Source of the DNA: Bilabrum cf. latius
Taxonomy: Eukaryota
Assembly: GCA_965178125.1 (NCBI GenBank)
Contig: OZ237743.1
Coordinates: 310,001 to 374,000, forward strand
Direction: 5' to 3'
DNA length: 64,000 nucleotides
Under the pieces are notes generated by a model. That model saw only the letters and a program-made list of their open reading frames with translations. It was not told the DNA's origin and made no database searches. Below, in pieces: positions 44,800 through 63,283 of the stretch (position 1 is its first letter; each line of letters opens with the position of its first letter). The position numbers were made by a program, and so were the translations under genes.

Positions 44800-45297
44800 T
44801 TATCCCATAAGATAAACTACAGGGAGTAATTTTTCTGTTTCGTCATCTTCCCATTTAACATCACATAAGGCTTTAGCGACTGTCTTTTTGTCTACAGCTT
44901 GAACAGATTTTTTCGTAGCTGAACCGTCAGAATGTGTGATTAGATAATCACCAGCTTTAATATCACCGCAAGTTTCTTTTTTAACTAATACCCCACCTTC
45001 ACCTACAGCATTAGCTTTTGCTTTTCCCTCTTTAGTTTTTCCAGCATAGACACCAAAAGGCAGAGCTACATCATCACATTTTTTTAATTCGTATTCGTTA
45101 TCACTGACAGAAACAGATTGAACCGATTGAATGGCTAAAATTGTTCCAAGCTCCAAGTCTTCCTCTAAACTTCCGATATGGGAGCCAGTGAAAGGGGTAT
45201 AAGTTCCTCCATCAAGTAAAGTACAATCACCCCTTAAGGTGAGACTTGCGTGATTACCGTTGTTAGAAAATTCAATGAACGAAGCATTAACACTGGC
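44800..45297 (-). pseudogene. 3' half of an outer-element fibre/chaperone-like gene split by the inner virophage
   Basis: Joins in frame to 63024..63254 (GKN|ASVNAS) giving 242 aa; FTGSH, AVGEG, AGDYL motifs shared with 55639..56814. Confidence 0.85.
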
Positions 45298-45302
45298 ATT
45301 CT

Positions 45303-45755
45303 GGGGGGGGTCAAGTGTGATGAGCGGGGCTCCACAGCAATATAGAGGAGACGCTTCGCGCCTCTCTACTCCTCTTAAGTCTCCTAGTAGAATTCCGTAG
45401 CGTGTCTCATAGTCCATGTCTCATAAAACAGACTACTTTTTATCTCCTACAAAGTAGGGGAATTTAAAGTTTATCTTTTATTTCTACTCCTATATTTCTC
45501 CTACAGCAATGACAGAGATGTTTTTATAAAAGTGTCAGAAGAAATTTGAAGAATCCAACGGCCTCCCAAAAACATCCCTGTGTTTGCTGTTAGAGGGATA
45601 CGGGAGCCGAAGGAACGAATTTGTCCCTACTTCGCAGGGCAAAACTCAATTTTAGACTTACTGAAGAGTTTCTACATCGGTCTCCATCTAGAGTCATGAC
45701 GGGAGCCGAGGGAACGTCTGGTCTTTCTCCGAAGCGAAGGTTCCCAAGACTTTCC
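45303..45755 (+). repeat. Left TIR of the inner virophage (begins G8-TCAAGTG)
   Basis: Reverse complement of 62571..63023 with about 4 mismatches seen. Confidence 0.95.
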
Positions 45756-45909
45756 TACAGCACTCCAGGTGTTCCCCAAGAAATCCCACCTTTTCCCCTC
45801 GGTTCTCGCACTGCGTGCTCCGCTTCCGAGAAATCCCAGTGCTTTCCATGCGATGCCCGCACTGCCTACGCCTTTCCCCACGGTTTTCCTACCGACCCCT
45901 ATAGTAAGA

Positions 45910-46113
45910 ATGGAAATAAAATTTATAAGCGATTCACTCTCTAAATTACCCAAAGAGGTTGACACGTTTCCTAACAAGAACACGAAGCGATTCTATCGTG
46001 CCCTTATGACTGATTCTCTTGTCAAAAAAATCAATCCAGTAATATGGAACAAACTCAAGATTAAATTGGAAACGTTTAGGGGGAACGAACGAGGAACGTA
46101 GTCAAACCAATAA
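45910..46113 (+). CDS. Small basic hypothetical protein, 67 aa
   Basis: ATG after TATAGTAAGA; one TAG, ends TAA. Confidence 0.5.
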
Positions 46114-46122
46114 AACCATACT

Positions 46123-47319
46123 TTAGTCGTTAGCAAACATTTTCCAAGCCATTCCCAAGGCTTTCTTGTTGCTTATCCCTTGTCCCCGGAGAATTGACGC
46201 CATTTTCATCACCCTTGAACGCTTTTCCGAAGACTTCCCTTTTCCAAACATTTCCACCCATGCTCCACTGACAGGGTCATCAACCACGGAATGAATTCCC
46301 TTCATGATAGGGACTCCCACGGTCTTTGTAGCCAAATCCCAGCCCTCCTTGAACTCTTTCCCAAAGTCCCTTTCTGTGTTCTACTTGTGTTTGGACTGAT
46401 TTTTCCTCAAAGCTTTCCTAATTTTAGGCGGTAGGCTGTCTATCTTATTTTTTTGGTCAAGCTTTTTCCCAAAAAGCTCACCTTTTCCAAATAGTTTGGA
46501 AGTCCAACCAGCTAAATCCGTAGCGACATTGGCGATTCCCTTGAACGCGGGGCTCATCTATGTTGCGATTTCAGCGACGGGCTACATAATGAACGACTCT
46601 AGGGAGGACGTTAAAAGCTTATTCACTTTTAGTATATCGCGGATGAACCTCTAGCAGTTCAAATCAAACGCTCTGTATTGGTAAAAATTGTATTCCCCTA
46701 TGCTTTCCAGGGTGTTTCCCAACAGTTCGTTTGCGGTTATAACACGGCCTTTCAAATCCACGTCCATCGTTTGACTGCGTTTATCCTTCTTATAGGTAAA
46801 CCCAACACTAACCCTCTCATTTTTCTCCATCACTAGCGGTTTTCCAGAGCCAATATTGGCGACAAGGTAGAGATGGAAATAGTCGCTAAATTTGTATTTC
46901 TTCTTCATCCGTTTCATCTTCCCGAAACTCATGACATTTAACAAGCGATTCAAACCAGACGACAAAGGAGTTCTTACAATCTTCAGGGAGAAAATCTAAC
47001 GATTTCCATACTTTTCCAAGGTTTTCCGAGTCGCGTTTGTGTGTCCCACGACAAGTCCGCCACACATACAACCACCCCTTTGAGTCATATATGAGTCCAA
47101 TGTATTGGATTGTATTTCTTTTTGTTTTCTAGGCCTTCCCCGATTAGATTTCTTAATATCCAATGATTTCTAGATGCTTTCCAGCATTTCCTTGGAGTAT
47201 GGGTGTTTTCCCTTCCAAGCCACCTAGGTTGCCTCATTAGGTTTTCTCACGGAAAGCATCGTTTTGATAAATCCCGTGTCTCGTTTGCCTCCTGAAAGCT
47301 CGTAAAATGACTCCGCCAT
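46123..47319 (-). CDS. 398-aa protein with an AT-hook-like RGRPRK and a permuted papain-like (PPPDE/LRAT-like) domain
   Basis: Single frame across TAGs; FHLYLV, MEKNE, YRAFDLNC[TAG]RFI (=NCQ); ends TAA. Confidence 0.65.
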
Positions 47320-47388
47320 GTTTAGTATAGATTTCCATACTTTTCCAACCTTGGGGTTTAAGTATATTTTAGCAGTCTATAGTATAGA

Positions 47389-47664
47389 ATGGTATTTGAG
47401 AGAGAACTGGAAGGATTCACATTTGTTGCCCCCTCCAAATAGAAAGGGAAGAAGTATGATGTGTATGACGAAGATGGTGAGTATATTACCAGCTTCGGAA
47501 GTAATTCCCACGAGCAGTATTTTGACCGTGTCGGGTATTATTCCCATTTAGACCACAAGGACGACGACCGAATGCGACGATTTCACCTTAGATTTAAAAC
47601 CCATAGCAATCCACCGAAGCCTAGAAGCCCCTTATGGTTTTCCAGTTATTATTTGTGGATATAA
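47389..47664 (+). CDS. 91-aa small protein of a type common in virophages/giant viruses (DUF5754-like)
   Basis: KKYDV..SFG....QY......DH.D..R..RF..R......SP.WFS..YLW; ATG after TATAGTATAGA. Confidence 0.65.
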
Positions 47665-47825
47665 ACGGTTTCCCCTTGGTTTCCCCTCGGTTTCCCCTCG
47701 GTTCTCGCACTGCGTGCTCCGCTTCCGACGGTTTCCAAGATTTCCCAGACTTTTCCCCTCGGTAAAAAGCTTCCTTGGAAAAGGGATATTTGATTTCCCA
47801 TTGAATAACTCTTCGTCTAAACAGC

Positions 47826-48446
47826 TCAGAGACGGTTTCCCAAGTCAAAGGTTTGCCGAATGAAGTTTTCCAACTGACTAAATGATGAAAACACCGTGTA
47901 GTGCGATTTGTCTAACTGGCTAATCAGACCGATTCGGCTTCTTTCCACTGCGTCCAAGATATCCTTGGACTCGGATTTAATATCCTCAAACAGGGAATGA
48001 CTTGGAACACACACGAAAATGCTTTCCAGCTTGAATAAATCTTTTCCAAGCTCAATATCACTACAGAAGACAATGATGCGACGACCTTTCTTGGTTAGCC
48101 AACGACTCTTCACGTCCTCATATACTTTCTTACAATGTCCGTAGTAAGTAAGACGGTGAGTAGACTCATCTCCGCTCTCAATCATTTTGTCTAACTTTCT
48201 TATTTCATCCGTTTTAAGGTGTGCCCTAACGACCTCGTCCAAATCCACTAGAAGTAGATTCTTATCCACGGATTCCAATTCCCTGACTAGGTGAGTCTTT
48301 CCCGCTCGTCTGGGAACCACTACACACACCTTCTAACGCTGATGGGGTAATTTAGTGGCCCATCCATACACACACTTGGATCCTTGGTAAGCCAAAGGCA
48401 CCATGGTTCCGATCACGGTCGCTCCAGTAAGAATTGCTGAAGCCAT
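47826..48446 (-). CDS. 206-aa P-loop NTPase/kinase-like protein
   Basis: VVVPRRAGKT followed by LLVDLDE; one TAG; ends TGA. Confidence 0.6.
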
Positions 48447-48503
48447 TCTGTCGTTTTATATAATATAAGACAACACAATATATTTATTTAGTCGCTAATT
48501 GAA

Positions 48504-50273
48504 TCACTGCGACATAATCTGGAGCAACTGATTACGAGACAACTATTTTCCTCCTGTTAAACCGGCGGCAGTCATACCGGCAGCAGTCATTCCTCGCCCC
48601 TTCTTTCCTTTCCCCATTCCCACCATCTTGGCGACCTGTGTTCCAGTCTATACTACATCACCCACGGTCTTGAGTAATTGTTTAGCTTTTCCACTCTTCA
48701 CATAATCCGCTACTTTCCTCAAAGCGTGCCTAATCTTGCGACCAAGATGCCTCCTCTTGCCACCATGAAGACCACTGATTTGACTCTCGTAAACCGTAGG
48801 AAGTTTCTGTGCGGAAAGCACATCAGCACGACTGATGACACCCTGGGAATAAGAATACTTCGTTCCCTCGGAAAGATTTAGAACGCCTTCATACAGTCCC
48901 ACGATCACCAGCTCTACACCACCTGCGGGGTAGTCCTCCAAGTCGTTGTTCTGAACCTGAGCGGTGATGGAAATCTCGTTGGAACCGTTAGAACCGTTCG
49001 TCTAATCCACATCAAGACTCAAGTCCTTGGCGGGATCAAGACAGATGAGCCCACCGCTTAATACCTTGTCTCCAAACTTTCTCATGACCCACTCTTCATA
49101 CTCCTGTTCCAAGCCGTTTGTTCTGGATAAGTCCCACAGTTGCTCTCGTGATGCGTCCGCGAGGAGACCCGAACGGTTATTCATCTGGACGGAAAGCGAT
49201 TGAATCGCTAGGAATGTGTTCCCCTTGTCCGTAGGAAGAGTGTTGGGCGACCGCCTTGCGAACACGAAAATGCGAGAAGGAACGGAATTGGAAAGCTTGT
49301 TGTTGTTATTTACCAGAGTAGCCGTGGCTCCGCTTGGAATGCCAGCACCATGTGCCTAGACATACTGCGTCATTTCAAAGACGTCGTAGGAAACTTGCTT
49401 GGGTAGGGTAAAGCCGACCTTGGGGGTAAGCATTTCAAGCATTAGCCTGGGGTTCATTACCTTGACATCCGAGACGCTCACGGAAGCCCCCTGAGGAAGA
49501 AAGTGAGACCAAAGGGTATTGCGAAGATTGGCAAAGTTCACATCTAATTCAAGGGTTTCCAGACCGAATAAGGCGGGTTGCTCTTCCTTGGTTTCATAGT
49601 GGAAAGGGGGAACCATAATACATTCGGCTACGGTGAACCTCACGGTCCGCTGTGCCGTGCCTGGACCCTATGCTGCTGCGGCGGGAACTGGGGTATTGTC
49701 TGGGGTGTTCTCCAACTGGAAATACCCGACACCACGCCCTGGACTCTGATACATACCGTCAGAATACGACCGAAGAGGGTTATTGGAAGCAGCATTCATC
49801 ATTGAATAACTGGGACAATTATCACGGCGATATACGGAATTCAGGCAGTTTACCTTGTGGACTTCGTCGTCAAGACAGTGATTGACTACATCCATGATTT
49901 GAGCGTTATTCTGGGTAAAGCGAACGGAATCAAGCGTTGCGGTTTGGGTGGCGATAGAACGGTTCAAGGGGTATGCCCTGGGGGCGTAAGTGTCTTCTCC
50001 AAATGGAACAACTGTTGCTGCGTTCGTGTTGCTGAAGTCAAGAGTTAGTTCAAAGGTTGCGGACATATACCCACGGCGACTGACACCGACCCCTGAGGGA
50101 ATGGAAAGCGACCAATTCACGCCCGAGGAATAGTCTCCGGCAGACCCTGAAGGTGCGTAGGAACGGAAGGTTCGGTTGGCGTATCCAGTATCCACGGCGT
50201 AGGGTTTGGCGGTGATGTCAAGGGAGGCGGGTTCAATTTTGACTGGCTCCAATGCGTGAATATTGAGGCTCAT
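48504..50273 (-). CDS. Virophage major capsid protein, 589 aa
   Basis: Four track ORFs in one frame joined by TAG; YAV..G, PS...VSRR, AYPL, GL..LEL..NF, VPSRIFVFAR, NNRSGLLA; basic C-tail after LHGG; ends TGA. Confidence 0.9.
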
Positions 50274-50391
50274 TGTCTGTTATACTATACACTCCGTTTT
50301 AATTTCTGATATTCCTTTCAAGAAATATCAAACAAATCATTTCCAATGTATTCCAATGTTTTCCAATGTTTTCCAATGCTTTTCTAAAGGA

Positions 50392-51501
50392 TTACCCGTG
50401 TCGGGAAAACTTAAATTTCACCGATGCGGAACCATGCCGAAGATATAGGGGGTGCGTCTCTCCGTAGGAATCTTTCCAATACAAATTAAACTGTAGCGTG
50501 TCAATACTAGAAGCGTTGAGAAGATCTATGGTGTGTTCTATCTTGGGCTGATACTGGAGAACGGCCTGGTTAATCATCTGGGAATCATCTAGGACACAAT
50601 CCATATCCACCAAAACACTTTCCGTGCCTCCTGTAGAACTAATGGACTAATTCGTGGAAAATCCAAAGGGAGTTTTGGCTGATACCCCCTCGCTTCGCAC
50701 TGGAAGACTGCTCGTTGTGAAAACGACTCCGCGGAACACCTGGAAATGTGCTAGACTGCCCCTATCCTGGGTCATTTTGAGTCTGTAAGGGGACTAGGGT
50801 ATAGTTTCCGTGTATGTGATTGGTGCGAATCCATCATCATCGTTTTCCACCAAATAGTTTGTGCCTAGGGATTTGAAAAGAACGGAGGAAAACACGTCTG
50901 GGTTCGTGTCTTGGATTCGCTGGACTGGGAAACCGCTTAAAAGTTCTCCCAATGGTTCATTCAATACTAATCTGTATTTCTGAGAAGGTTGTCCTTCGTG
51001 ATAGCTGGAATCCGCGAACAGGGAAAACTTTCCGTCGTCATAGGTAAGCGTTGGCGTGGTTGCTACTGCTGACTAGGGAAACTTCTCCATGGTCTCATTA
51101 AAGAGACTGACAAAGTGTTCTATCGTGTATAAATAATAATATCTTGTAAATGCCTGGGGGGACTACCAACTCGGCTACGGTTCTGCGATTAACTAGGGTT
51201 TCCAAATGATGGGTTGCGTTCCAATCATGCTCCCGTCCTCCACGTCTTGGATGCTGATTCTGTAGATGGTTTGGTCTGGATTCTTGCTGGGATTTGTGGA
51301 AAGGTCTATATCTATGTGGGGAATCCATACGGGAATTGTATTGGTGGATATGGTGAATCGTTGGACGCTCAATTTGTAATCCTCTACATTTCCGCTTAAG
51401 ATTGGCTTTTTCCTCACCTCATTGTATTGGGCGGGCTGATAGGAGTCTTCATTATTGCGTATATTTGCGTTGATATAGAAGTAGTCAGGTTGTCTAGACA
51501 T
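50392..51501 (-). CDS. Virophage minor capsid (penton) protein, 369 aa
   Basis: YNEVRKKPIL...DYKLSVQRFTI...IPVWIP, YYYLYT, VVFTTSSLPV, YWKD.YG...L....SASVKF.F. Confidence 0.9.
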
Positions 51502-51732
51502 TTACTATACTATAACTTTTTAAGAAAAAGTAATCCTTTTAAGAAAAGAATAAGCAAAAGAGCGGAGCGCGCTTAAGCGCGAGCATCTTGACTAAAAACA
51601 GTGAACGGGAGGGGTTTTCATTTCAACCCTTTGGGAAATGGTCGGAAGTCTTGGGAAATGGGTAGGAAACACTTGGGAATTGCTAAAAAACATTCTAAAG
51701 ATATACTAAGTGGTTTTTCTGAAAAAGTAACT

Positions 51733-52263
51733 ATGGACTACGCCCTAAGTGATACAGATGTAAGGAATATGTGCGGGAATCCGCCCAGAGTGAAGGGGTT
51801 CAAGGCGTGTGCCGTCTCCATTATACCATATGAGAACTTGGAAAGGGTGGAAAGCATAGATAGAATCGTTTCACCGTCCAAGCCTTGTATTTTGTTGTAT
51901 TAGGAAAGTCCTAATTCAGGTCATTGGGTTGCCTTGTTTCGTCGTGGGAAAACCCTGTGTTTCTTTGACCCCTACGGCGTGAAGCCCGATATGTAGCAGA
52001 CTCTAATGAGTTCTAAAGTGCGGAAACGATTCTATGAAAACCCACACCTCGCTAGGCTCATGTATGAATGTCCTTACTCTATAGATTACAATTAGTATCC
52101 TTTCCAAGCCGATGGAGACGACATAGCAACATGTGGGAGACACTGCGTGGTCCGCCTTTGGAATCGTGGGAAAAGCACGGAAATGTATGGGAAATATGTG
52201 GAAAAGGTGTGTAAATCATAGGAAATAAATCCGGATGAATTAGTGTTCTTATTGACGACTTAA
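51733..52263 (+). CDS. Virophage maturation cysteine protease, 176 aa (alternative start 51658)
   Basis: SGHWVAL, FFDPYG, FQ.....ATCGRHC; four TAGs; ends TAA. Confidence 0.92.
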
Positions 52264-52337
52264 AGCGTTTTCCATTTTCGTCAAAACTGTATGCGTCCAG
52301 TGAAACACTATTATCGTTATCTATACTATAGAAGGAA

Positions 52338-53249
52338 ATGCCCTCATTCACTTGGACTCACACTTCAGACACCATACCAATTGCGAAAGACACAGAATAG
52401 AACAGGATATTGTTTCTAGATAAGAGGGACGACCATGAGACGAAGTTTGGCGACAACGACGACATGACAGCGGAAGATTTAGAGCTCACGGAAGTTCTTA
52501 AGAATAAAGTGTCAATGAAGCGTTTGGATTTACTCCGCAAACATTTAATCCAGTCTGTAGAACCTTTGGATAGCGATATGAAGCGGTTCTATGACTTGGC
52601 GTAGGAAAAGAAGCGAAAGGAAGTCAGTCTGCGGAAAGGACAATTTGACCCAATGCCGAGTGGGAAAGGGCGGGAAGTGATATATATTACTGCTCCAAGC
52701 GGTGCGGGGAAGTCTACATGGGTTTCCAAGTATTCCAGGAACTATTCCAGACTTTTCCCAGACCAAAAAATTGTCTTGTTCTCACGCTTGGAAGACGATG
52801 AGGTGTTAGACGCGATCCCGTCTCTCGTGAGAATCCAATTAGATGAAGAATTAGTAGAGAATCCCATTGACATTCACACCGAATTAAAGGACTGTCTGGT
52901 GATTCTAGACGATATTGACACGGTGAATGACAAGAAAATCCGTTTGGCATTGGAATAGTTGTAGGACGACTGTCTGTAGACCGGAAGGCACTCAAACACT
53001 TCTTGTTTAATTACCAGTCATTTAAGCACCAATTATAAGAGCACCAGGATAGTGTTAGCGGAATCCCACAAAGTGGTTATTTTTCCAAGGGCTTCCAGCG
53101 CTCACTCTTTGCGTTATTTGTTGAATAAATACGTTGGACTTGAGAAACAAGACATTTCTAAAGTGATGAAATTACCGAGCCGTTGGGTGTGTATCCATAG
53201 GAATTATCCTAGATATGTTTTAGGCGAGAGGTAGGCATACATAGTGTAA
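52338..53249 (+). CDS. FtsK/HerA-type genome packaging ATPase, 303 aa
   Basis: YITAPSGAGKS, LVILDD, L[TAG]TGRH, SRWVCI...YP; ends TAA. Confidence 0.92.
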
Positions 53250-53257
53250 AAGCTTTT

Positions 53258-53725
53258 TCAAAATAAATTTTGCTCCTTTACATATTTACTTGCTTGTGGA
53301 AGAGACATGCCAGTCTGCTCCATTACCGCCTTTACTACTTTATTCCTTTGTTTCATTTTCTCACTTATTTTCCTCTTACGCCCTTCCGTGGGCTTTTGGG
53401 AAAAGCTCTTACGTTTTCCAGAACCGCCCAGAGATAATCCACCGATATTGGATAAATCCTCTACTGGGGTTCGGAGATTGTCAAAACTGCCGACATGAAA
53501 AGGGGTTTTCTCTTGCTTTCCCGCCAGTTTCTTCCAGATCTGTTTGCCCTTGGCGACTACACCTTGTCCCAAGGTCTTAAATATGAACTTCATCGCCTTG
53601 GCATCATCCGTCCATTTTCCGCCTTGGAGATTGGGGGACACTTGGGCGATTCTCTCGTTGGCGTCCTTCTGTTTCTGCTACACTAGCTATGCCGTCCGCT
53701 TCCTAATGTATTCGTCAATATCCAT
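53258..53725 (-). CDS. 155-aa basic putative virion core/DNA-binding protein
   Basis: Several GG motifs; C-terminal RNKVVKAVMEQTGMSLPQASKYVKEQNLF resembles a motif recurrent in virophage proteins. Confidence 0.65.
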
Positions 53726-53934
53726 TATAGTATAGAATGAGTTTTTTTTAAAGAAATATGCTCTTTCATTGTTTTCCATTGCTTTCCATAGATTTCCAAA
53801 CATTTCCCTCGGTTTTCCACCCATTTCCAATCCGCTTGAAAAACGCTTGGAAAACAAGATGCTCGGCCTTTGGCCTCCGCTCTTTCCATTCTTTTCAAAA
53901 GGATCTTTATTAAAACGTAATCTTATAGTAAAGC

Positions 53935-55278
53935 ATGTCATTCCAATCACCAAACGTCCAAGCACTCATACAACAAGCCCTTGGAAAACAGCTAGACTGG
54001 GCGAAATTGTAGGATTTAGAAGCAAAAGACACCGCCGACCTGGAAAGCGAATACGCTTCCTATATTAGGTAGAAAAGTAAAATAGAACGATTGAAGGAGA
54101 GTGGAAAATATGGAACGCCTTCTATGAGGAAGAAAGCGGACCAAACCAACTAGGAAATCGTGGGGAAATCCATCGCTGGGATCATGAAGGGAGTGGTTGA
54201 GGGAGAGCTGGGAAAAGCGCGGAAAGCGACGGAAGCTTTAAAACAGTTCTTGGGAAGCATCAACGTGAGTGGGGAAATGAAGGAATACTTGGGGAGACAA
54301 ATTGTAAACATAGCGACCCTTGCGAGGAAGGGATACGCAGGCTTGCGTAAAGTCCCATCAGAAGATATGAAAATCTTGAATAACCTTAGAGAAATTGTTT
54401 AGAGTTCAGCAGGATAGCCGCATACTATACCACGAGGACTTCGTGAAACACCAGAACGGACTGTTGAGAGAACACCGCAGTTGCGAGAAGAAGAGGCAGA
54501 AAGGGACGACGAAGACAACGACGAAAGACCTGAGCCGACAAGAACGAACAGGCAATTGCGAACCATCCTAAAAGATATGGGAAAAGCAAATATTGATACA
54601 AGCCAATTACTTCGTTTAAGAGACGCAAAAGACCAGCGACTAGCAGCCCGCATTTGGGACGCAAACAGAGACCAAGGGATAGAGTATGCTTTACAATTCG
54701 CCAGCGGCTCCACGGTATCACCAGCCAAAACACGAGCAAGACGACAAAAGGAAGCAGACATTCCACTGGAAGACCCGCCAGCGCAGCCTCAACCACAAAG
54801 AAAGTTCCGACCACAGAAAGAGATAGAGAAAGATATGGATAACGCATATCAGGCAGGATTCATTACAGAGGATGAAGTTAGACTATTCCAGCGAATTAAA
54901 GATTCCAGCGACAGGAAGGTGGTGCGAGCGTTTTGGGATAGGCATAAAAATTTACCGCTTAAACGAGCCATTCAAATTGTAGACCCGCAGTTGTGGACTG
55001 AAGAAGAGGCGGAAGTGAGACGAATGTAGCGGGAGGGACGGGCTCCAAGTTTCGCATCACCTATACAGAAAGGAGCCAAGAAAGGAGCCAAGAAGGGAGC
55101 CAGGAAAGGAGCCGTGCGAGGGCGCGGACGATTAAATCCATAGGAATCACACCTTTTCCAGACCGCTAAGAATGTTTCCAAGAAGGTAAAGGGAGCGACC
55201 AAAGACATTCAAGACTAGGTTGCGGACGAAGTGATTTCTCTACTTAAATCTACTGCTATACTATATAGCACAGAATGA
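53935..55278 (+). CDS. 447-aa charged/coiled-coil hypothetical protein with KGAK repeats
   Basis: One frame across several TAGs; ends TGA overlapping the next ATG. Confidence 0.7.
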
Positions 55279-55487
55279 CGGAAGAATGGAGTTACAATAA
55301 ATACTATTACGAGAAAAATAAGGAACGCTTAAAGAAAAAGGTGGAGTGCGGGTGCGGTTCCAAAGTAGCTCGCTACAATTTGTAGCACCACAGGAAAACC
55401 AAGAAACACATGGCGTGGGAAACCGATGAAACCAAGCAGGAAATCCAACGACTCAAGGACGAGTTAAAATGCTTGAAGCATGAATAA
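55275..55487 (+). CDS. 70-aa zinc-finger protein
   Basis: YYEKNKE...VECGCG......NL[TAG]HHRKTKKH. Confidence 0.75.
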
Positions 55488-55638
55488 AAGAGCTTTTTAG
55501 GAAAAACCTCAGCCAAAAAGAATTCAGAGAGTCCTTAAGTAGTTTTGGTTAAGCAAGATGCTCGGCCTTTGGCCTCCGCTCTTTTCATTCTTTTTGAAAG
55601 GATAATCTTAAAAGCTTACTATATATATATATAAACGT

Positions 55639-56814
55639 ATGTCCGTCTCTAATCTATTAGTGCCGAACTCATATAGGTTGTATTGTCAGAGTATAACACC
55701 CGTTGAAGGTGGTGGAGGTGGCGGAACACCGAGTCTATCAAGTGTTCTACAGGTGGGAAATGATGCTGGAAATACTACAATCACAAATGTTGCCCTTCCA
55801 GTCAATAACCAAGATGTTGCTACGAAGCAATATGTGGATTCCACGAGTGGCGGAGGAGGTGGTGGAGGAGTAACACCAAACCTAACTGCTGTGCTGACAC
55901 AAAGTGGAGACGCGGGAAACCTTACCATATCAAATCTAAAGTCTCTGCGAATGGCAACAGGAGGCAACGGGGAAATCCAAACACCTTTTTCGGGGAACGC
56001 CTCTTTGGGATACACCCGTTAGACAGATGAAAGTGCTTTGTTTGAATACTATGCGAACTATGGAACGGGAAGTAAGAACCCTATGACACGACTTTATACA
56101 GGAAACGGGAACGAAGATGGAACGAACGCCGAATTTATGGTGTATGGGACAATTGAGTCTAACAAAGGGGTCATGGGGGGTATGACGCTCACAGGTGCGA
56201 TTGACGGAGATAAACAAAGAGAACAACCCACCATCACACTTCAAACCACACCAAGTCCTCTCAAGAACCAAATAGAGGGAAGGAATACAAATGGAACTCC
56301 AGCAAACAACTTCATTCAATTCTGGATTGATGATGGTAGTGGAAATCTGGTAGGCACAGCACAGATACGTGGAGATGGAACTATGTTCGTGTAGAATGGA
56401 GTTGTTCCTTTCACGGGAGCACACGTGGGAACGCTGGGAAGCGGTCCGAAACCAAAGATTGGGTAGGTTATGTCAGTAAGAACTGCGACGGTAAACGATG
56501 TGTCTAATTGCGAGTTTTCATTCAGGGTTTGCGATCACACAAGCGTTCCATTTGGAGTCTTTAGCGGAGAGGGAAAGGATGGGGAAATACGGGTGAATTC
56601 CGTGGGAGAAGGTGCTGTCCTTTGTCTGCGAGATGACAGCGTTCCTATTTTGGCAGGGGACTATCTGTCTATCTCAAGAACGAAAAAAGGATATGTGGAA
56701 AAGTCCAGGAGTTCTCAATTTTCTAAATGGGTCGTTGGGAAAGCAATCGTAGATGTTGAGTGGGACGACGAGGAGGAGGAAAAGTTAATTCCAGTGGTAT
56801 ATTATTGCGGATAA
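55639..56814 (+). CDS. Fibre-like protein with a C-terminal chaperone-like domain, 391 aa
   Basis: VLQVGNDAG..ITNV..P...QDVATKQYVD repeat; FTGAH..VGEG..AGDYL..PVVYYCG; three TAGs. Confidence 0.7.
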
Positions 56815-56848
56815 ACGAAAAAAGCGGAGACTATAGTATATACACAAT

Positions 56849-57373
56849 ATGAGTCTTTCCAACATCCTTCAAGACAACAGTTTCGCACTCAAGTGTGCTT
56901 CTCTCACGACTGAAGCAATCTATGGACTACAAGGAAAGGATTTGACGATTCAAACCACAAGGGCGGATTCTGGCGACGATGGATATGCTGTGGTGCTGAA
57001 AGCGTCAAATTCTACCACTACTGAAACGTGTGATATTCGGTTTGGAAATGGCGAGCTTGGAACAGCCTCGGCTCGTATTTACGCAAGGCAAGGCGGACAA
57101 ACTCAACAAGATGACATAGATGGGTCGTATTTCCTTGGTGGGTATTGTGTTCTTTCCAAAGGGGGGGCGGGTCTTGGTCTTCCAGTAAGGACTGCGACCT
57201 AGATTGGAGACTCCACGGATACTTGTAATAAAACAGGTCGTCCAGAAGACACAAAACGAGCGGGTGTGCTTCTGTTTAATTCTACAGATTCTATTGTGAT
57301 GGTTTCCGTAGGTGATGACTCTACGAGTGCTTGGAAGGAAGTGGGTGGAACAACCACCATAACACCATCATGA
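56849..57373 (+). CDS. Second fibre-like protein, 174 aa
   Basis: N-terminus MSLSNILQDNSFALKCASLT parallels MSVSNLLVPNSYRLYCQSIT; one TAG; ends TGA. Confidence 0.55.
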
Positions 57374-57467
57374 TGTATCTCCAAAGAACCCTAAGGGCTT
57401 TTTGTAGAATACCTATCCGGTAGTTCAATACAATCACTATTGTAAGGAAATCATTCTATTGACTCCT

Positions 57468-59312
57468 TCACTATAGGAACACCTTTTTCTTCGCGTGAGT
57501 AATCACACACTCCCCCTGAGTCTCTAATTTCCACTCTCCGAGGTTTTCCGAGAGTTTCAAGGGGATTTCCACATCGCTCACAAATCCGTCCGTATTCACA
57601 TAGTGGATTCTATCTAGGTGCGGTTCTATCACCTTGGAAAGTTTCCGCCGACCAAATGCTGTTAGGAAAGGGCCTAGACGAGCATAGCAAGTTCTATAGG
57701 TATATGTTTGTGTCGCTAGAATGCCTTTTACCCTTCTTCCACCGTCCTACATGAAGGCGTCCTTAAGCGTTCTGAAGTCCACAACTTCGTCGTCGCTGGA
57801 AATGGTCTTTACTACCTAATTCTTTTGACACAACGCACCCCATACAGAATTAAGCAGTTGTTTTGCTGTTTTAAATCCTTTCTTTTTATATCCAAAGAGT
57901 CGCTCCACCAAACCCTTGAAGAGACTGACTGCCTTGATTCGCCTGTCTTTCTCGTAGATTAGGGCATTCGCCTGACCGTCTTGAATGATGGAAAAGGTCG
58001 CCCCTGTTTCCTACGCCCTTACTATATCGTGGTGAGTCCAATAATCGTTTTTGCGTGGCTGGATAAGCTTGGGATTTAGGTGTTCCACCTTTACCCTGTA
58101 AATCCCGAATTTCCAACCGAAGTCCTCTGGGGTCTGGGAAAGCGTCTGGAAATCTCCGGAAAGGATTGGAAACTACATCTATGACTTCAATATGCTTGGA
58201 TAGAAGCTATTCATGTCGTATTGGTATGCTTTCTCCAGTTTCGTGTCGTTGTTCGCCCAGTTCAGTCCGCCACCAGACGCCTTGGAAATCCACTCCGCCT
58301 CTTTGCGCCCCAAAGGCTCGGCTGGGAAAAGCTTGGAAAACTTGGAAAAGTAATGCTTTACGTAGTAGGAAGGTCTATATCCATATTTAGATAGATCCAT
58401 ATACCCACCAGTCTCTTGAGAGAGTGTCTCGGCGTCCTCGTGGATTCGCCTCCAGGTCGGTTCTAGGTCTTCCTCTACAGAGACTTTCCAAAGACTCTTT
58501 GTATGTATATCTGTTCTTAATCGTGATTCAATATGTCTAGTTGCTCCGTCATACATGATATATTCGCTTTCCGCCTTTTTCCAGTAGGTGATTAGGCGAA
58601 CTGACTCCTTCGTGGGAATACACATTAAATCTTTCTGGGATTCTGGGGAAATGAACTCGTAATGTCCGTTTGTAAGGGAGATGCTCGCCAAGGGGTCGTA
58701 AGACTTTCCAGATGTGTAGGAAAAGTCTCCAGTCAGATGAATGCGGATCTTCAGGTAATCCTCTACCTCGGGAATTCTCTTGTAGTGGATTGGTTCGCTC
58801 CGTCCTAGGTTCAGTTGGGACTTTAGCTGGGCGGGGGAAATCCTATGGAAACCACTTTTATACTTGCCATTTACCTTCTTGTTTCCTCTAAATCCTACTT
58901 GGAAGGGAAAAGCCTTCTTTAGGGCGTTATACAGACAGTCGTTATTCTCGTCCTTTCCGCCCCTCGGATTGTCCTTGGGAAGCAAAAGAAGTTCAAATGT
59001 GTTTAGTCTGCGGTGTTCCTACTCATCTACATCCTCGTCTTCGTATCCCTTCCACAGAGAGGTAGTTTCCTTCAAGTCTTCCGTGGTGATCCAAGCACTC
59101 CTTGTCCGCCACCCTTCCTCCACAAAATTGAGGTTTATCTTGAACTTGTATCCGTCAAAGGGATTCTCTCCGTCCTCGTCGTAGTCCTTGATAAAATCCA
59201 TCACATCCTTTACAGTGATTAGCTCGTCCGCATGGAACCTAACGCTCCAAATTGGAACGCCGTTGAGTCTCAAGTTGGTCCTCTCGGGTTCGCCGAAATC
59301 AATCTCAACCAT
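57468..59312 (-). CDS. Protein-primed family B DNA polymerase, inner virophage, 614 aa
   Basis: YDMNSFYP, KQLLNSVWG, YVNTDG, LGEWKLE; collinear with 42989..44767; ends TAG-TGA. Confidence 0.92.
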
Positions 59313-59453
59313 TCTAGAGTATATAATATACTATAGACTACCAAATTATACTTAATGTGTGAGCCTCACGATGCCCTTCCGTGGGCAGACTACGGGTGAA
59401 ACGAGAAGCAACGCTTCTCCGCTATGGGTTTTGCTGTCCTTTTCTGAAAAGGA

Positions 59454-61136
59454 TTACGCCTCGTCAATTTTACACAGAGACAGTTTCAGAGATTTCCCAC
59501 GCTTTCCAAGGGGTTTTCCTTTGGGTTTTGGTGGGTTTTCCTTCATCCATGCGGTGATTGCTACACATGACTCGGCCGACAGTTTCTTCTATGTTTTCCT
59601 GTGGAAAAGCTAATTGTCGTCCATTTCCCTCTCCAGTTCCAACTCTTCTATGCGTTCCGTTTGCTCCTGTAGTTTCTTCTACATTTCCTATAGTTGTTCT
59701 CGTAGCAGTTCCACCTCGGTCTTGGCTTTCTCTACCTCTGCTTCTTGGCGGAGAGCTTTGAACTTCTTCCGAAACCCTTCCAATAGGTCTTTGTGCTTAA
59801 CCTTAAACTCTTGTTTTCTCTGTGAGTTCATCGTGGAATACACACCTACTTCCGCCAACTGTTCCTTAATCTTCGGCGTGGAGAGGTTCTTGATTTGTCC
59901 CTTCAGTTCGTCCTTTAGGTAGTTGCGGAAGGCCATCACGGAAATGTGGAAATCTTTTCTCTCGTCCAACCACTCTTCCTTTAGCGTCCGCAGGATAGGG
60001 TGTGCCCCTTGTAAAATCCCCTTATGGAAATTCTAGGATTTCGGAGCGTATAGTCCCTTGAACTCAGGTGAGTCGTCGTAGACTTTCGCGAGGTATAGGA
60101 AGAACGCCCTCGCCACCTCTTTGCTCTCCGTTGCTTCCTTGAGTTTCTTAAAGTATTCCTTGTCGCCTTTCCTGGATGTGTTTACATCCAACACGCAATA
60201 TCTGCGGATTTCCTCTGTAATTTTGATGGGTGCGTCGTTCGTGTCAATAACGAGGTTGAAGGTGTTGGGACGGCTCTCGGTCTTGACGAATTTCTCATTA
60301 CAGGAAAAGGTCTTCTCGGTAATTAGATTGCGTAGGGTCGCCTACATAGCGTTCCATCTAGTATTGGAAGCTTTTGGAATCTCATTGAAGTTCACAAGTA
60401 GTTTTCCATCTAGGATAGAGTTGAAGGCATCGGGCTGAAGCATGGCGTTCGTGAGCGTCTGGAGCGTCAGGGTGTATCCAAGGAGTTTTCTCATAAGGAA
60501 CGTAATGATGATAGATTTACCAGTTCCCTACGGAGACTTTAGATACAGGGCGGTCTGGAGTTTTTCCCCGCCTACAATCACGTGTGCCAGCCACTTCATC
60601 ACGAAGTCAAACTGGGTGTCGTCCTCGCTCGTCCAGACCTTGTGGATATGTTCGGAAATACGAATCACGCCTTCCCGTGCGTCTTCAGGCACGTCTTCTA
60701 GGTTTCCGCAGTTTTCCCGAGTCATCAGGGGTTTTCCCATGAGGTTAATCGTTTGCTTCTCGTAGTCCACAGTGGGTGCGTTGAATCGTCTCACCACCCG
60801 AAAAACATCTGTGTTCTCGTTAAAGAACCAATCACGAGCAGACCAATCCTTCACCTTCCTATTGTTTACCATTCGGTAGATACAGTGTCCGCCAATTAGG
60901 TAGTTCTCGCTGATGTTTCGGTTCGCCAAGAACTACCAAACTGGTTTCTAGGGATTCTCGTCGGAAATGTTCTAGCGGTTCAGTTCATCCCCCTAGAGGA
61001 AATACACGCCTCCACCTTGGTCGTGGGTGCGGTAGAAATATTGTTGAATGTATTTGATACAATCCTCCTGATTTCCAGTATCACAGAGTTGCTTGAGGGT
61101 TCTGGCGGAAAAGGCAACGGTTGGCATCTGAGACAT
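59454..61136 (-). CDS. SF3 helicase, inner virophage, 560 aa
   Basis: LYLKSP[TAG]GTGKS, LLVNFNE, VIDTN, EIRRY; ends TAA. Confidence 0.9.
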
Positions 61137-61347
61137 TTTCTGTTGGTTATACTATATACTACCAAAATATACTTAAGTGCTGATGCGTCAATTTTCCAGA
61201 GAGTCATCTGAGACATTTCCAGAGATTTTCAGAGGTTTCCAAAGATTTCCAAGAGATTTCCATAGCTTTCCAACGATTGGAAAAATATAGGTAGTGCGTT
61301 AGTCTTAAGGTATGGAATTTTCCCCACTCATCTTCATTGTTCGCCAC

Positions 61348-62427
61348 TTATGTCAGGTCTATTGGGGCTATCCCAAACTCCGCTGGAAGTTGCTTTTTGG
61401 CGTCTTCTAGGGTTTCCCACGTCCAATCCTTTTCGTTTGGAAGACCGTCCCATTCCACTTTGACTCTCGTTGGTTCTCGGGTATGGACTTTCTTCATATC
61501 CTTTCTGCGGATTGCCTTGGTGTTGTGGAGCTCATCGTCGTCAATTATCTATAGTTCTTCCTTTGTGTAGGCTACTTTGTGTTTCTAATCCACGACATAT
61601 AAAGGGGGCTACCCTGGTCGCAGAAGCACCTTGGTAATTTGTCGCTCGGTCGGGTCGTAGCGTAAATCACTGGCTCTAAATGAACCCATGAGTTTCTTGG
61701 AGAGTTTGTAGGCCTCTCTAGGTTCTTCCAATGGAATCCTAACAATTGTTCCCTTTTCCAAGATATCGCAAGCCTTTCCCCTACAGTGGGTCGCTCCAAA
61801 GTCAGTCGTGGGAATGGGTGGGTTTTCTTTGAGTTTCTCTTTCTGGAATTCGTTGTAATCATTGACAATCGTAGGTATTAAATCCACCCAACGTCGTTCT
61901 ACTTTTCCCTTGGCTATTTCCTCTACATTCTGGACGGAATTGATGACGATTCCAAACAGCTTGTTTAGGTTTTCCACCACGGCCTGTTGTTTGTGTCGCC
62001 CTGGCTTGTTTCGGCGCACGTAAATAGGCCTTTCCTATTCTTGTAGGTGCCTTGCCAATTCGTTAAATTCATTTCCGTTGTCTATTTCTAGCCTCACGGT
62101 GGGTTGCTAGACATTTCCCCGCATGAATATCTAGAGAGCTTTTTCATAGGTTTCTTTCTGGGTTTTCTTCAATAGCGGTTCTGCGTCTATTAATTTGGTG
62201 TGTAAATCCACAGCAGTTAAAAGGTATTTATATCCTTGGTCGTTCGGCAATTGGAGTAAATCCATCTGAACGACTGCGTTTGGCTGCGGGACGTTCACCT
62301 TGGGTCTGTTCTTGCCCTTGGGTTTCTTTGGGCGTTTCATTAAATTGCGGATTCTAGAGTCCTAGGGTATGTGAACCCCTTGGAGAACATATTGGAGAAC
62401 ATTCGGGTATTCTTTCAGGATTTCCAT
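61348..62427 (-). CDS. Retroviral-type (rve, DDE) integrase with a C-terminal chromodomain-like region, 359 aa
   Basis: QMDLL..YKYLLTAVD, IDNGNEF, QAVVENLN, VKVEWDG.P...WTWE; seven TAGs; ends TAA. Confidence 0.92.
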
Positions 62428-62570
62428 TTACTATAAGGGTCGGTAGGGAAACCGTGGGAAAATCTTGGGAAATGGTGGGATACCTTGGGAAACACCAGGG
62501 ACTTCTTTGGAAAAGGTGGGATTTCTTTGGATGCTGTATGAAATTGATTGGAAACCGAGGGGAAACCTTG

Positions 62571-63023
62571 GGAAAGTCTTGGGAACCTTCGCTTCGGAGA
62601 AAGACCAGACGTTCCCTCGGCTCCCGTCTTGACTCTAGATGGAGACCGATGTAGAAACTCTTCAGTAAGTCTAAAATTGAGTTTTGCCCTGCGAAGTAGG
62701 GACAAATTCGTTCCTTCGGCTCCCGTATCCCTCTAACAGCAAACACAGGGATGTTTTTGGGAGGCCGTTGGATTCTTCAAATTTCTTCTGACACTTTTAT
62801 AAAAACATCTCTGTCATTGCTGTAGGAGAAATATAGGAGTAGTAATAAAAGATAAACTTTAAATTCCCCTACTTTGTAGGAGATAAAAAGTAGTCTGTTT
62901 TATGAGACATGGACTATGAGACACGCTACGGAATTCTACTAGGAGACTAAAGAGTAGTAGAGAGGCGCGAAGCGTCTCCTCTATATTGCTGTGGAGCCCC
63001 GCTCATCACACTTGACCCCCCCC
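62571..63023 (-). repeat. Right TIR of the inner virophage
   Basis: Reverse complement of 45303..45755. Confidence 0.95.
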
Positions 63024-63254
63024 ATTCTTTCCTAAGTAAATTCTTCCATTACCGCCATCACTGGTAATGAATGGTACACCTTTTCCGTCAGCTTGACTGA
63101 AAGAAATTCCAGCATTGCTTGCCAAGTCTCCATTACCATCAAGTGTTGATATTAAATTAAAACGATTAGTATTTATAATACTATGACCTTGGCAATCTAA
63201 TTGTTTGGCTATATTTAAATAACCGATGGTTGAAAAGGGCATATTATCCGACAT
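63024..63254 (-). pseudogene. 5' half (77 codons) of the split outer-element gene
   Basis: MSDNMPF...RIYLGKN then the TIR; continues at 45297. Confidence 0.85.
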
Positions 63255-63283
63255 ATTACAAGACTATAGATTATTTTTTTAAA

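What the first reader, a model, noticed from the sequence alone, without database searches (positions are those of the whole stretch)
45303..63023. A complete virophage recoded to TAG=Gln
Seen: every core gene (MCP, penton, ATPase, protease, pPolB, helicase, integrase) contains in-frame TAGs, dozens in total, including inside the helicase Walker A SP[TAG]GTGKS and NC[TAG]RF. In what I translated there were no frameshifts or internal TAA/TGA. Inference: an intact eukaryotic DNA virus adapted to a non-standard host code, unable to express its genes in standard-code hosts. Its helper giant virus must also cope with this code. Standard gene callers would shred and miss it.
Basis: partly seen in the sequence, partly recalled or inferred. 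Interest (0 to 1): 0.92.

Follow-up and report, generated by a model that had tools for sequence, protein, structure and literature searches.

The report
Integrated virophage written with TAG as glutamine
An intact virophage is integrated in a protist-like genome, and both it and its host read the stop codon TAG as glutamine, so it belongs to a virus lineage that ordinary gene finders cut to pieces.

Summary
Window 45303-63023 is a 17.7-kb element with 453-nt terminal inverted repeats (4 mismatches) and a 5-bp target duplication (ATTCT). It carries 13 intact ORFs: 4817 codons, 69 in-frame TAG, no in-frame TAA or TGA. Stops are TAA or TGA only.

It encodes a Sputnik-type major capsid protein and penton, an A32/B204-like packaging ATPase and an adenain-like protease. 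It also encodes protein-primed PolB, a D5-type helicase and an rve integrase.

Metagenomic relatives (41-73% capsid identity) have the same genes and also carry in-frame TAGs. Between relatives, TAG aligns mostly with TAG or Gln codons, including in the helicase Walker A motif.

The 58%-GC flank also needs TAG as sense (subtilase ORF with 10 TAGs; paralogues TAG↔CAG). There, TAA and TGA terminate. So the virophage follows its host's TAG=Gln code rather than a code of its own.

New context: the element sits inside a fibre-like gene of a second, AT-rich, related element with no TAG in 1734 codons.

Precedent exists: polinton-like insertions in Streblomastix use the host's TAA/TAG=Gln code. I rate this a new variant of a known kind. 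Giant-virus dependence and expression remain untested.

The parts
1..40433 (.). Host-like flank, 58% GC, also read with TAG as sense (TAA/TGA stop)
   Evidence: GC 0.581. The longest TAA/TGA-free frame is 1281 codons against 521 under the standard code. The subtilase ORF 7053-10898(-) has 10 TAG, two of them inside the Pfam S8 match. In paralogues TAG pairs with TAG 96 times and Gln 21 times of 145. A TAA stop aligns with a TGA stop in paralogues.
40434..45297 (.). Left part of the outer, AT-rich, TAG-free virophage-like element: D5-type helicase 40633-42198(+), 217-aa ORF 42237-42890(-), pPolB-like 42989-44767(+), 3' part of a fibre-like gene 44800-45302(-)
   Evidence: GC 0.344. D5_N and PHROG primase hits. 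Its pPolB is 28% identical to the inner pPolB, E 1e-60. It has 0 TAG in 1734 codons and all 5 stops are TAA. The left boundary is placed by the composition shift only.
45298..45302 (.). Target-site duplication, left copy (ATTCT)
45303..45755 (+). Left terminal inverted repeat
   Evidence: 454 nt, 99%. (453 nt, 4 mismatches).
46123..47547 (-). ORF of up to 474 aa, unknown function, 8 TAG. The true start is probably further in.
   Evidence: 59% identical to a 306-aa ORF of L003, with three TAGs at shared positions.
47826..48446 (-). 206-aa ORF, unknown function, 1 TAG
   Evidence: 74% identical to L003.
48504..50273 (-). Major capsid protein, Sputnik type, 589 aa, 5 TAG
   Evidence: Pfam PF21915 81.3 bits and PF22031 87.4 bits, cut-off 27. 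PDB Sputnik V20 3j26_A at 6e-25 and mavirus MCP 6g43 at 1.3e-3.
50392..51501 (-). Penton (minor capsid) protein, 369 aa, 6 TAG
   Evidence: Pfam PF21507 47.6 bits. PDB 3j26_N at 4.8e-12.
51733..52263 (+). Adenain/Ulp1-like (clan CE) cysteine protease, 176 aa, 4 TAG
   Evidence: No Pfam hit. Invariant GHW, Q125 and C134-G135 in 12 sequences. Model pLDDT 88.6. Foldseek hits OtDUB at 2.5e-5 and adenovirus protease at 5e-5.
52338..53249 (+). Packaging ATPase (FtsK/HerA-A32 type), 303 aa, 6 TAG
   Evidence: Walker A G124-K125 and Walker B D191-D192 are invariant in 40 sequences. Model pLDDT 91.6. The best fold match is the STIV2 B204 packaging NTPase, 3.6e-7. Pfam gives only sub-threshold AAA hits.
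53258..53725 (-). 155-aa ORF, unknown function, 2 TAG
   Evidence: TATAGTA lies directly upstream.
53935..55278 (+). 447-aa ORF, unknown function, 8 TAG
   Evidence: 38% identical to L003.
55639..56814 (+). Fibre-like protein, 391 aa, 3 TAG
   Evidence: PHROG tail-fibre repeats at 3.9e-5. 61% identical to L003.
56849..57373 (+). 174-aa ORF, unknown function, 1 TAG
57468..59312 (-). Protein-primed family-B DNA polymerase, 614 aa, 7 TAG
   Evidence: Pfam PF03175 31.9 bits, cut-off 25.8. phrog_1907 at 3.5e-15.
59454..61136 (-). D5/VapE-type SF3 helicase, 560 aa, 11 TAG, one of them in Walker A
   Evidence: Pfam DUF5906 58.3 bits. phrog_1156 at 3.9e-22. The Walker A TAG pairs with CAA (Gln) in L003.
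61348..62427 (-). rve-family integrase, 359 aa, 7 TAG
   Evidence: Pfam PF00665 38.7 bits, cut-off 32.6.
50283..50289 (-). One example of the promoter-like motif TATAGTA, 10 nt upstream of the MCP start. Other copies lie just upstream of penton (51503-51514), ATPase (52324-52330), p155 (53726-53732), p447 (53924-53930), fibre (55617-55623), p174 (56832-56838), pPolB (59329-59335), helicase (61150-61156) and integrase (62429-62435).
   Evidence: 20 matches in the window against 1.93 expected, and 0 of 100 shuffles reach 20. Positions. The same motif lies upstream of helicase, pPolB, penton, MCP and p206 in L003.
62571..63023 (-). Right terminal inverted repeat
63024..63028 (.). Target-site duplication, right copy (ATTCT)
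63029..64000 (-). Right part of the outer element: 5' part of the interrupted fibre-like gene, and an upstream fibre-repeat ORF 63284-64000 that runs off the window
   Evidence: Removing 45303-63023 and one ATTCT in silico gives one 242-aa ORF across the junction. Its C-terminal part matches the inner fibre protein (36%, E 4.6e-26).

Best explanation
This is a complete, recently integrated endogenous virophage. Its capsid module is Sputnik-like. Its replication and integration module is mavirus/polinton-like (protein-primed PolB, D5-type helicase, rve integrase, long TIRs, 5-bp target duplication).

Its genes are written in the nuclear code of its eukaryotic host, where UAG is decoded as glutamine and UAA/UGA terminate.

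Shown:
- the anatomy of the element;
- TAG used as sense in all 13 genes;
- Gln as the best meaning of TAG;
- the same TAG usage in the flanking host genes;
- a deep clade of environmental relatives with the same property;
- insertion into a gene of a second, related, TAG-free element.

Inferred:
- Host ribosomes, with a host tRNA-Gln(CUA) and a release factor that ignores UAG, translate the virophage mRNAs.
- Its genes are transcribed from the TATAGTA motif found directly upstream of at least 10 of 13 genes. By analogy with Sputnik and mavirus (recalled), that motif would be the late promoter of a helper giant virus.
- Such a helper virus would have to be compatible with the same code.
- In a standard-code cell every gene of the element would be truncated.
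For: Anatomy:
- TIRs and target duplication.
- Capsid genes by Pfam and PDB.
- Protease by fold and invariant His/Gln/Cys.
- ATPase by fold and invariant Walker motifs.
- pPolB, helicase and integrase by Pfam or PHROG.

Code:
- 69 TAG, 0 TAA and 0 TGA in 4817 codons. Stops are TAA or TGA only.
- Window against L003 in 10 gene pairs: of 56 aligned window TAGs, 13 face TAG and 13 face Gln. Of 48 L003 TAGs, 13 face TAG and 11 face Gln.
- Gln scores best by BLOSUM62.
- The Walker A TAG pairs with CAA in L003.
- Protease TAG57 and TAG88 pair with Gln in L003 and P0151.
- In L005 (41% MCP identity), 2 of 3 TAGs face window Gln in conserved motifs.
- Orthologues swap TAA and TGA at the same ends.

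Host:
- Long frames appear only with TAG as sense.
- TAGs lie inside the S8 domain match and inside a weak, sub-threshold RVT_1 match.
- In paralogues, TAG pairs with Gln at 21 of 49 non-TAG partners.
- A TAA stop aligns with a TGA stop in paralogues.

Clade: 5 TAG-bearing MCPs and 4 close database proteins form one branch (SH-like 100, stem length 0.91) apart from 38 other virophage MCPs plus P0042, which joins them only at 93.

Integration is real:
- Excision restores a 242-aa ORF.
- A contig of run X5, from another study, crosses the right junction with 0 differences, 68 nt on the inner side and 606 nt on the outer side.
Against: - There is no RNA or protein evidence. No RNA run was listed.
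- No tRNA is found in the window, so the decoding agent is unseen.
- At distant homologues the TAG columns are not Gln. MCP columns are dominated by N, T, E, gap and K/M. ATPase columns are dominated by D, gap, A, R, E and G. The window's own CAA/CAG Gln codons behave the same way.
- 30 of 43 non-TAG partners in L003 are not Gln.
- Giant-virus dependence is not shown. The replication module is shared with polintons.
- Contigs of run X1 reach only 29 nt into the TIR at either junction, below the tool's 31-nt bridging rule.
- The host/outer-element junction near 40434 was not checked with reads.
Confidence: 0.85

Rival explanations
1. It is a self-synthesising polinton/Maverick-type transposon, or a polinton-like virus, that does not depend on a giant virus. 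It would share the host's TAG=Gln code but would not be a true virophage.
For: rve integrase, protein-primed PolB, TIRs and a 5-bp duplication are the polinton module. The element is multi-variant in several runs. No giant-virus sequence is in the window.
Against: MCP and penton match the Sputnik-specific Pfam families well above cut-off, and match the Sputnik structure. A short motif sits directly upstream of most genes and is conserved in L003, as expected of a viral promoter rather than host promoters.
Confidence: 0.12
2. The recoding is the virus's own, as in code-15 phages. The host would use the standard code, and the virus would bring or induce a suppressor tRNA, perhaps to time late-gene expression.
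For: TAG=Gln recoding of this kind is known in crAss-like and other phages (PMC9523058 and the preprint 10.1101/2021.08.26.457843, search listings only). The TAG share differs between genes, from 12% to 67% of Gln codons.
Against: The host flank needs TAG as sense. TAG is in all 13 genes, including integrase and polymerase. There is no tRNA gene in the element or the window.
Confidence: 0.03
3. TAG is sense but is not glutamine (Glu or Lys), or is read ambiguously.
For: Glu and Lys are the next best scores, 66 and 44 against 116 for Gln. K and E are frequent partners.
Against: Gln is the commonest non-TAG partner in both directions and in host paralogues. The codon partners are CAA/CAG: 13 of 43, 11 of 35 and 21 of 49. 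K, E, S and T are also the usual replacements of ordinary Gln codons here.
Confidence: 0.05
4. It is a decayed, dead insertion whose TAGs are mutational stops.
For: Under the standard code every gene is broken.
Against: Only TAG occurs in frame, 69 against 0 TAA and 0 TGA, P about 1e-41. There are no frameshifts. 13 TAGs sit at the same sites in a relative with 38-76% protein identity. TIRs are 99% identical.
Confidence: 0.01
5. It is an assembly chimera: a free virophage genome wrongly joined to other contigs.
For: The element is multi-copy or multi-variant, which breaks short-read assemblies. X1 contigs stop 29 nt inside each TIR.
Against: There is an exact 5-bp duplication, and an ORF is restored on excision. 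A contig from a second study crosses the right junction without a difference.
Confidence: 0.03

Closest known systems
Mavirus and the endogenous mavirus-like elements (EMALEs) of Cafeteria (recalled; Koslova et al. 2024 seen only in a reference list)
   Same: Integrated virophage with rve integrase, protein-primed PolB, long TIRs, a 5-6-bp target duplication, and the four capsid-morphogenesis genes. A short promoter motif sits in front of the genes.
   Different: Standard code there, TAG=Gln here. By sequence the MCP is much nearer Sputnik V20 (6e-25) than mavirus MCP (1.3e-3). The promoter-like motif here is TATAGTA.
Sputnik virophage capsid proteins (PDB 3j26)
   Same: MCP and penton are homologous and match the Sputnik Pfam families.
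   Different: As recalled, Sputnik has no protein-primed PolB or rve integrase of this type. It uses the standard code. Identity to full-length database MCPs outside the clade is only 24-31%.
Polinton-like/Maverick insertions of Streblomastix strix that use the host's TAA/TAG=Gln code (Bellas et al. 2023, PMC10120064, passages read)
   Same: An integrated DNA virus of this realm is written in the host's variant nuclear code, which the authors read as a sign of long association.
   Different: There both TAA and TAG are Gln, and the MCPs fall in a 'Metamonada' polinton-like group. Here only TAG is reassigned, TAA is a working stop, and the capsid is of virophage type, with free-standing metagenomic relatives.
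Code-15 (TAG=Gln) bacteriophages (PMC9523058, search listing)
   Same: The same codon has the same meaning, and standard gene callers fail in the same way.
   Different: In those phages the code differs from the host's. Here virus and host agree.
Eukaryotes with UAG=Gln but UAA as stop: Iotanema spirale (PMC5304391, abstract), Hartmannula sinica and Trochilia petrani (PMC11687900, abstract)
   Same: The host flank shows the same rare pattern: TAG sense, best read as Gln, with TAA and TGA terminating.
   Different: The host here is unidentified. Its 58% GC would be unusual for ciliates (recalled). No virophage is reported for those organisms in the papers I searched.

Membership tests
Virophages (class Maveriviricetes; four morphogenesis hallmark genes, definition recalled) | Virophage-type double-jelly-roll major capsid protein | tested here: met
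   PF21915 and PF22031 at 81-87 bits, cut-off 27. Sputnik V20 at 6e-25.
Virophages (class Maveriviricetes) | Penton (minor capsid) protein | tested here: met
   PF21507 at 47.6 bits. 3j26_N at 4.8e-12.
Virophages (class Maveriviricetes) | FtsK/HerA-type packaging ATPase | tested here: met
   Best fold match is STIV2 B204 at 3.6e-7, TM 0.62 on the target. Walker A and B are invariant. Sequence profiles give only generic P-loop hits.
Virophages (class Maveriviricetes) | Clan CE (adenain/Ulp1-like) cysteine protease | tested here: met
   Foldseek hits adenovirus protease at 5e-5 and OtDUB at 2.5e-5. His64, Gln125 and Cys134 are invariant. No Pfam hit. The PDB profile search gave only E 0.66.
Virophages (class Maveriviricetes) | Replication depends on a co-infecting giant virus | not testable with these tools
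   There is only the indirect hint of a shared upstream motif.
Mavirus-like endogenous virophage / polinton-type integration module | rve integrase, protein-primed PolB, TIRs and a short target-site duplication | tested here: met
   PF00665. PF03175 and phrog_1907. 453-nt TIRs. ATTCT duplication, with the flanking ORF restored on excision.
Genetic code with TAG=Gln and TAA/TGA stop (NCBI table 15 pattern) | TAG in frame throughout intact genes, never used as terminator | tested here: met
   69 TAG in 13 ORFs. 13 of 13 stops are TAA or TGA. The same holds in L001-L005.
Genetic code with TAG=Gln and TAA/TGA stop | TAG positions correspond to Gln in relatives | tested here: met
   24 of 78 non-TAG partners are Gln, the top residue. 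Gln is the best BLOSUM62 score. Distant homologues are uninformative.
Genetic code with TAG=Gln and TAA/TGA stop | Suppressor tRNA-Gln(CUA) and altered eRF1 in the organism | not testable with these tools
   No tRNA in the window. No whole genome is held.
Virus-specific stop-codon recoding (phage code-15 type) | Host uses the standard code while the virus does not | tested here: not met
   Host-flank genes carry in-frame TAG that pairs with CAG/CAA in paralogues.

The most novel reading that the evidence does not exclude
A whole giant virus-virophage-host system runs on UAG=Gln in an unidentified GC-rich eukaryote. The code acts as a gate on which mobile viruses can work there.

The TAG-rich virophage clade has long been locked into this host lineage. 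29% of its Gln codons are TAG, and TAGs are shared across relatives with 41-73% capsid identity.

The TAG-free sibling element it landed in uses only TAA stops, so it is readable under both codes. It would be either a recent arrival from standard-code hosts or an element kept code-neutral so that it can cross between them.
Probability: 0.3. Interest if true: 0.8.

Novelty: new variant of a known kind. Interest (0 to 1): 0.6.

Why it matters
- It shows that virophages, not only polinton-like insertions, have followed a host into a variant nuclear code. A whole environmental clade of them is invisible to, or fragmented by, standard-code gene calling. The closest database capsid hits are pieces of 133-270 aa.
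- It points to a eukaryote with the rare UAG-only reassignment, and to a giant virus that should be compatible with it. The TATAGTA motif gives a concrete handle for finding that virus.
- Two related elements in one locus, one TAG-rich and one TAG-free, offer a natural comparison of how long each has lived under the variant code.

Tried and rejected
- Whole genome of the window: none is held.
- IMG/VR scans found no relatives. I tried the MCP alone, an MCP alignment, and the outer pPolB.
A smaller alignment worked on metagenomes.
- tblastn of the MCP against the phage-record collection gave no match, so I have no named virophage reference and no named tree.
- Distant homologues could not decide the meaning of TAG. 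The sites lie in variable columns in 150 MCPs and 39 ATPases.
- The PDB sequence search with the protease gave only repeat artefacts from WD40 proteins. A profile search gave E 0.66. The fold search was needed.
- Sequencing runs: no RNA holder was listed, so nothing can be said on expression.
- X1 contigs do not formally bridge the junctions, with 29 nt on the TIR side.
- A first maximum-likelihood tree of 82 rows did not finish. I report a FastTree of 48 rows. It used 37 of the 150 best MCP hits (P0004-P0044, at least 500 aa), plus P0163-P0167 and 5 translated loci. Fragments were left out.
- Literature searches found no paper describing a Sputnik/mavirus-type virophage with TAG-only recoding. 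The library lacks most subscription journals, and supplements were closed. The SI tables of Bellas et al. 2023 may list further variant-code insertions that I could not see.

Full report
**What is in the sequence**

The window has two parts by composition. Bases 1 to about 40400 have 58% G+C. The rest has 34-48%.

Within the second part, the repeat finder reports inverted arms 45302-45755 and 62571-63024. Read base by base, the repeat runs from the G-run at 45303 to the C-run at 63023. It is 453 nt with 4 mismatches. It is flanked on both sides by ATTCT, at 45298-45302 and 63024-63028.

Under the standard code the 17.7 kb between the tips holds only short ORFs, the longest 268 aa. With TAG read through, 12 long ORFs appear. 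I added a 13th at 53258-53725 on the minus strand.

Over the 13 ORFs there are 4817 codons with 69 TAG, no TAA and no TGA. Seven end in TAA and six in TGA. Each of the 13 has at least one TAG.

Off-frame in the same genes the three stop trinucleotides occur 228 (TGA), 162 (TAA) and 134 (TAG) times. A decaying element would not show TAG alone; P is about 1e-41.

**What the genes are**

- **Capsid.** The 589-aa protein matches both Sputnik MCP Pfam families (81 and 87 bits, cut-off 27). The 369-aa protein matches the Sputnik V18/19 penton family at 47.6 bits. Against solved structures they hit Sputnik V20 (6e-25), the Sputnik minor virion protein (4.8e-12) and, weakly, the mavirus MCP (1.3e-3).
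- **Protease.** The 176-aa protein has no Pfam hit. In an alignment of 12 sequences it keeps GHW, Gln125 and Cys134-Gly135 invariant. It folds with pLDDT 88.6. Its fold neighbours are clan-CE proteases: OtDUB, adenovirus protease, Ulp1 and ASFV pS273R.
- **ATPase.** The 303-aa P-loop protein has invariant Walker A and B in 40 sequences and pLDDT 91.6. Its best fold match is the STIV2 B204 genome-packaging NTPase (3.6e-7).
- **Replication and integration.** The element encodes a protein-primed PolB (PF03175, phrog_1907), a D5/VapE-type helicase (DUF5906, phrog_1156) and an rve integrase (PF00665).

So all four virophage morphogenesis genes are present, together with a mavirus/polinton-type replication and integration module. 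Six further ORFs are of unknown function; one of them is fibre-like.

**Meaning of TAG**

No close relative was found in IMG/VR. One metagenome scan returned five loci, L001-L005, with 41-69% identity to the MCP in the tblastn best segment. In the tree alignment the highest identity is 73%.

L003 is 13.8 kb. It has the same genes in the same order, and each carries in-frame TAGs and TAA/TGA stops. L002 and L003 share an identical MCP gene, and L001 is 97% identical. These three therefore count as one lineage.

I aligned 10 gene pairs codon by codon between the window and L003, at 38-76% protein identity:
- 56 window TAGs face TAG 13 times, Gln 13 times (8 CAA, 5 CAG), Thr 5, Lys 4, Glu 4 and others 17.
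- 48 L003 TAGs face TAG 13 times, Gln 11, Lys 6, Glu 4, Trp 1 and others 13.
- For comparison, ordinary window Gln codons face Gln 54 times of 132 and TAG 11 times.

Summed BLOSUM62 scores rank Gln first (116), then Glu (66) and Lys (44). Trp scores -187.

Individual sites:
- The helicase Walker A SP[TAG]GTGKS faces SIQGTGKS with CAA. NC[TAG]RF has TAG in both elements.
- Protease TAG57 and TAG88 face Gln in L003 and in P0151. L003's TAG89 faces a window Gln.
- In L005, the most distant relative, 2 of 3 TAGs face window Gln in the conserved motifs NGLE-Q-E and YES-Q-IS.

Against this, distant homologues say nothing. The five MCP and six ATPase TAG columns are variable and are not Gln-rich in 150 and 39 sequences. 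The window's CAA/CAG Gln columns behave the same way.

TAA and TGA swap at identical C-termini between orthologues. TAA is therefore a working stop, and the code is TAG-only.

**The code is the host's**

In the 58%-GC flank the longest frame free of TAA/TGA is 1281 codons. It is 521 under the standard code.

The 1281-aa frame is a subtilase (PF00082, 32.3 bits, cut-off 21.8) with 10 TAGs. Two of them lie inside the domain match. An 812-aa frame with 6 TAGs has a weak reverse-transcriptase match (25.2 bits, below the 29.6 cut-off).

The flank holds gene families. Among paralogues, 145 TAGs face TAG 96 times and Gln 21 times (17 CAG, 4 CAA). Val follows with 10. Gln is again the best score.

Two paralogues end in TAA exactly where four others end in TGA.

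So the nuclear genes beside the element use TAG as sense, most likely Gln, with TAA and TGA as stops. In the papers I could see, this rare pattern is reported for Iotanema spirale, Hartmannula sinica and Trochilia petrani (abstracts).

The TAG share of Gln codons is 29% in the virophage and about 15% in the host frames (my sum of the counts). There is no tRNA gene in the window.

**Integration and nesting**

The sequence on both sides of the element is not host-like. It is AT-rich (34-37% G+C). It encodes a D5-type helicase, a 217-aa protein, a pPolB 28% identical to the inner one (E 1e-60) and fibre-like sequences. Helicase, pPolB and fibre stand in the same order as in the inner element.

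Removing 45303-63023 and one ATTCT in silico gives a continuous 242-aa ORF across the junction. Its C-terminal 166 residues match the inner fibre protein (36%, E 4.6e-26). The virophage therefore inserted into a gene of a related element.

That outer element has no TAG in 1734 codons, and all five stops are TAA. With 79 Gln codons, zero TAG has P about 3e-6 at the host's TAG share. As written, it is readable under both codes. Its left boundary near 40434 rests on the composition shift only.

**Read evidence (contigs only)**

- A contig of run X5 comes from a different study than the best holder. It covers 62956-63629 without a difference, so it crosses the right junction.
- X1 contigs stop 29 nt inside each TIR.
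- Runs X7 and X8 hold many 90-99% variants of the inner element but nothing of the flanks.
- No RNA run was listed.

**A clade, and a promoter-like motif**

In a FastTree of 48 MCPs, the five TAG-bearing sequences and four close database proteins (P0163-P0166, whose DNA I did not see) form one branch. It has SH-like support 100 and a stem of 0.91. The 38 other rows fall outside it, as does P0042, which joins it only at 93.

The best hits in the 1.8-billion-protein library are fragments of 133-270 aa. Two end at NGLE, just before a TAG that I could see in L005. This shows the shredding by standard-code gene calling.

TATAGTA occurs 20 times in the window against 1.9 expected, and 16 of these are in the element. 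Copies lie within about 25 nt upstream of the starts of MCP, penton, ATPase, p155, p447, fibre, p174, pPolB, helicase and integrase. The motif lies upstream of five genes of L003 in otherwise diverged spacers.

By analogy with Sputnik and mavirus, whose genes carry their giant virus's late promoter (recalled), this is a candidate helper-virus promoter. That step is inference.

**Comparison with what is known**

The principle is in print. Bellas et al. 2023 state that polinton-like insertions in Streblomastix strix use that host's TAA/TAG=Gln table (PMC10120064, passages read). Paez-Espino et al. 2019 took an ochre-suppressor tRNA in one virophage clade as a hint of host stop reassignment (PMC6905037, passage read).

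Five searches found no description of a Sputnik/mavirus-type virophage with TAG-only recoding. The library is incomplete and supplements were closed.

**Verdict**

The element is a new variant of a known kind. It is an intact endogenous virophage of a deep, environmentally spread clade that shares its host's UAG=Gln code, and it is nested in a TAG-free relative.

Untested: expression, the decoding tRNA, the identity of the host, and the existence and code of a helper giant virus.

Noticed in passing
window 40434-45302 and 63024-64000: A second, AT-rich (34-37% G+C) virophage-like element surrounds the finding. It has a D5-type helicase, a pPolB 28% identical to the inner one, and fibre genes. 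It has no TAG in 1734 codons and only TAA stops, so it is readable under both the standard and the TAG=Gln code. Its fibre-like gene is split by the inner element.
   Followed up: partly
window 1-40400: The host-like flank itself uses TAG as sense, best read as Gln, with TAA and TGA as stops. This is a rare nuclear code pattern. The organism is unidentified.
   Followed up: partly
window 7053-10898 and 17414-21259: Two identical 1281-aa subtilase frames lie 10,361 nt apart, with neighbouring ORFs repeated at the same spacing. This is a large tandem duplication of a gene-family block. Several further paralogues of three families fill the flank.
   Followed up: no
window 27707-30993: An 812-aa frame has a weak reverse-transcriptase match (RVT_1, 25.2 bits, below cut-off) and 6 TAGs. 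It overlaps a 428-aa frame. This may be a retroelement written in the same code.
   Followed up: no
window 47666-47703, 50340-50384, 53763-53798, 61211-61278, 62446-62531: Arrays of 10-11-nt tandem units with a TTTCC/GGAAA core sit in the spacers upstream of several virophage genes and next to the right TIR. They may be binding sites. Their function is unknown.
   Followed up: no
window 53852-53919 and 55551-55618: A 68-nt block, 84% identical, precedes both the 447-aa gene and the fibre gene. A similar stretch precedes the penton gene. It looks like a shared upstream regulatory region.
   Followed up: no
window 40297-40433: About 5.8 copies of a G+C-rich 21-nt tandem unit lie exactly at the shift from 58% to 34% G+C, where the outer element seems to begin.
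   Followed up: no
window 61348-61500 (C-terminus of the integrase): By eye, the last 40 or so residues (…VKVEWDGLPNEKDWTWETLEDA…) look like a chromodomain. No Pfam match was listed at E ≤ 0.01.
   Followed up: no
window 45335-63343 in runs X1, X7, X8: Summed contig depth over the inner element is 2-5 times that of the flanks in X1. Other runs hold many 90-99% variants, some with small deletions in spacers and alternative TIR tips. The element is probably multi-copy and polymorphic, but contig depth is not a copy number.
   Followed up: partly
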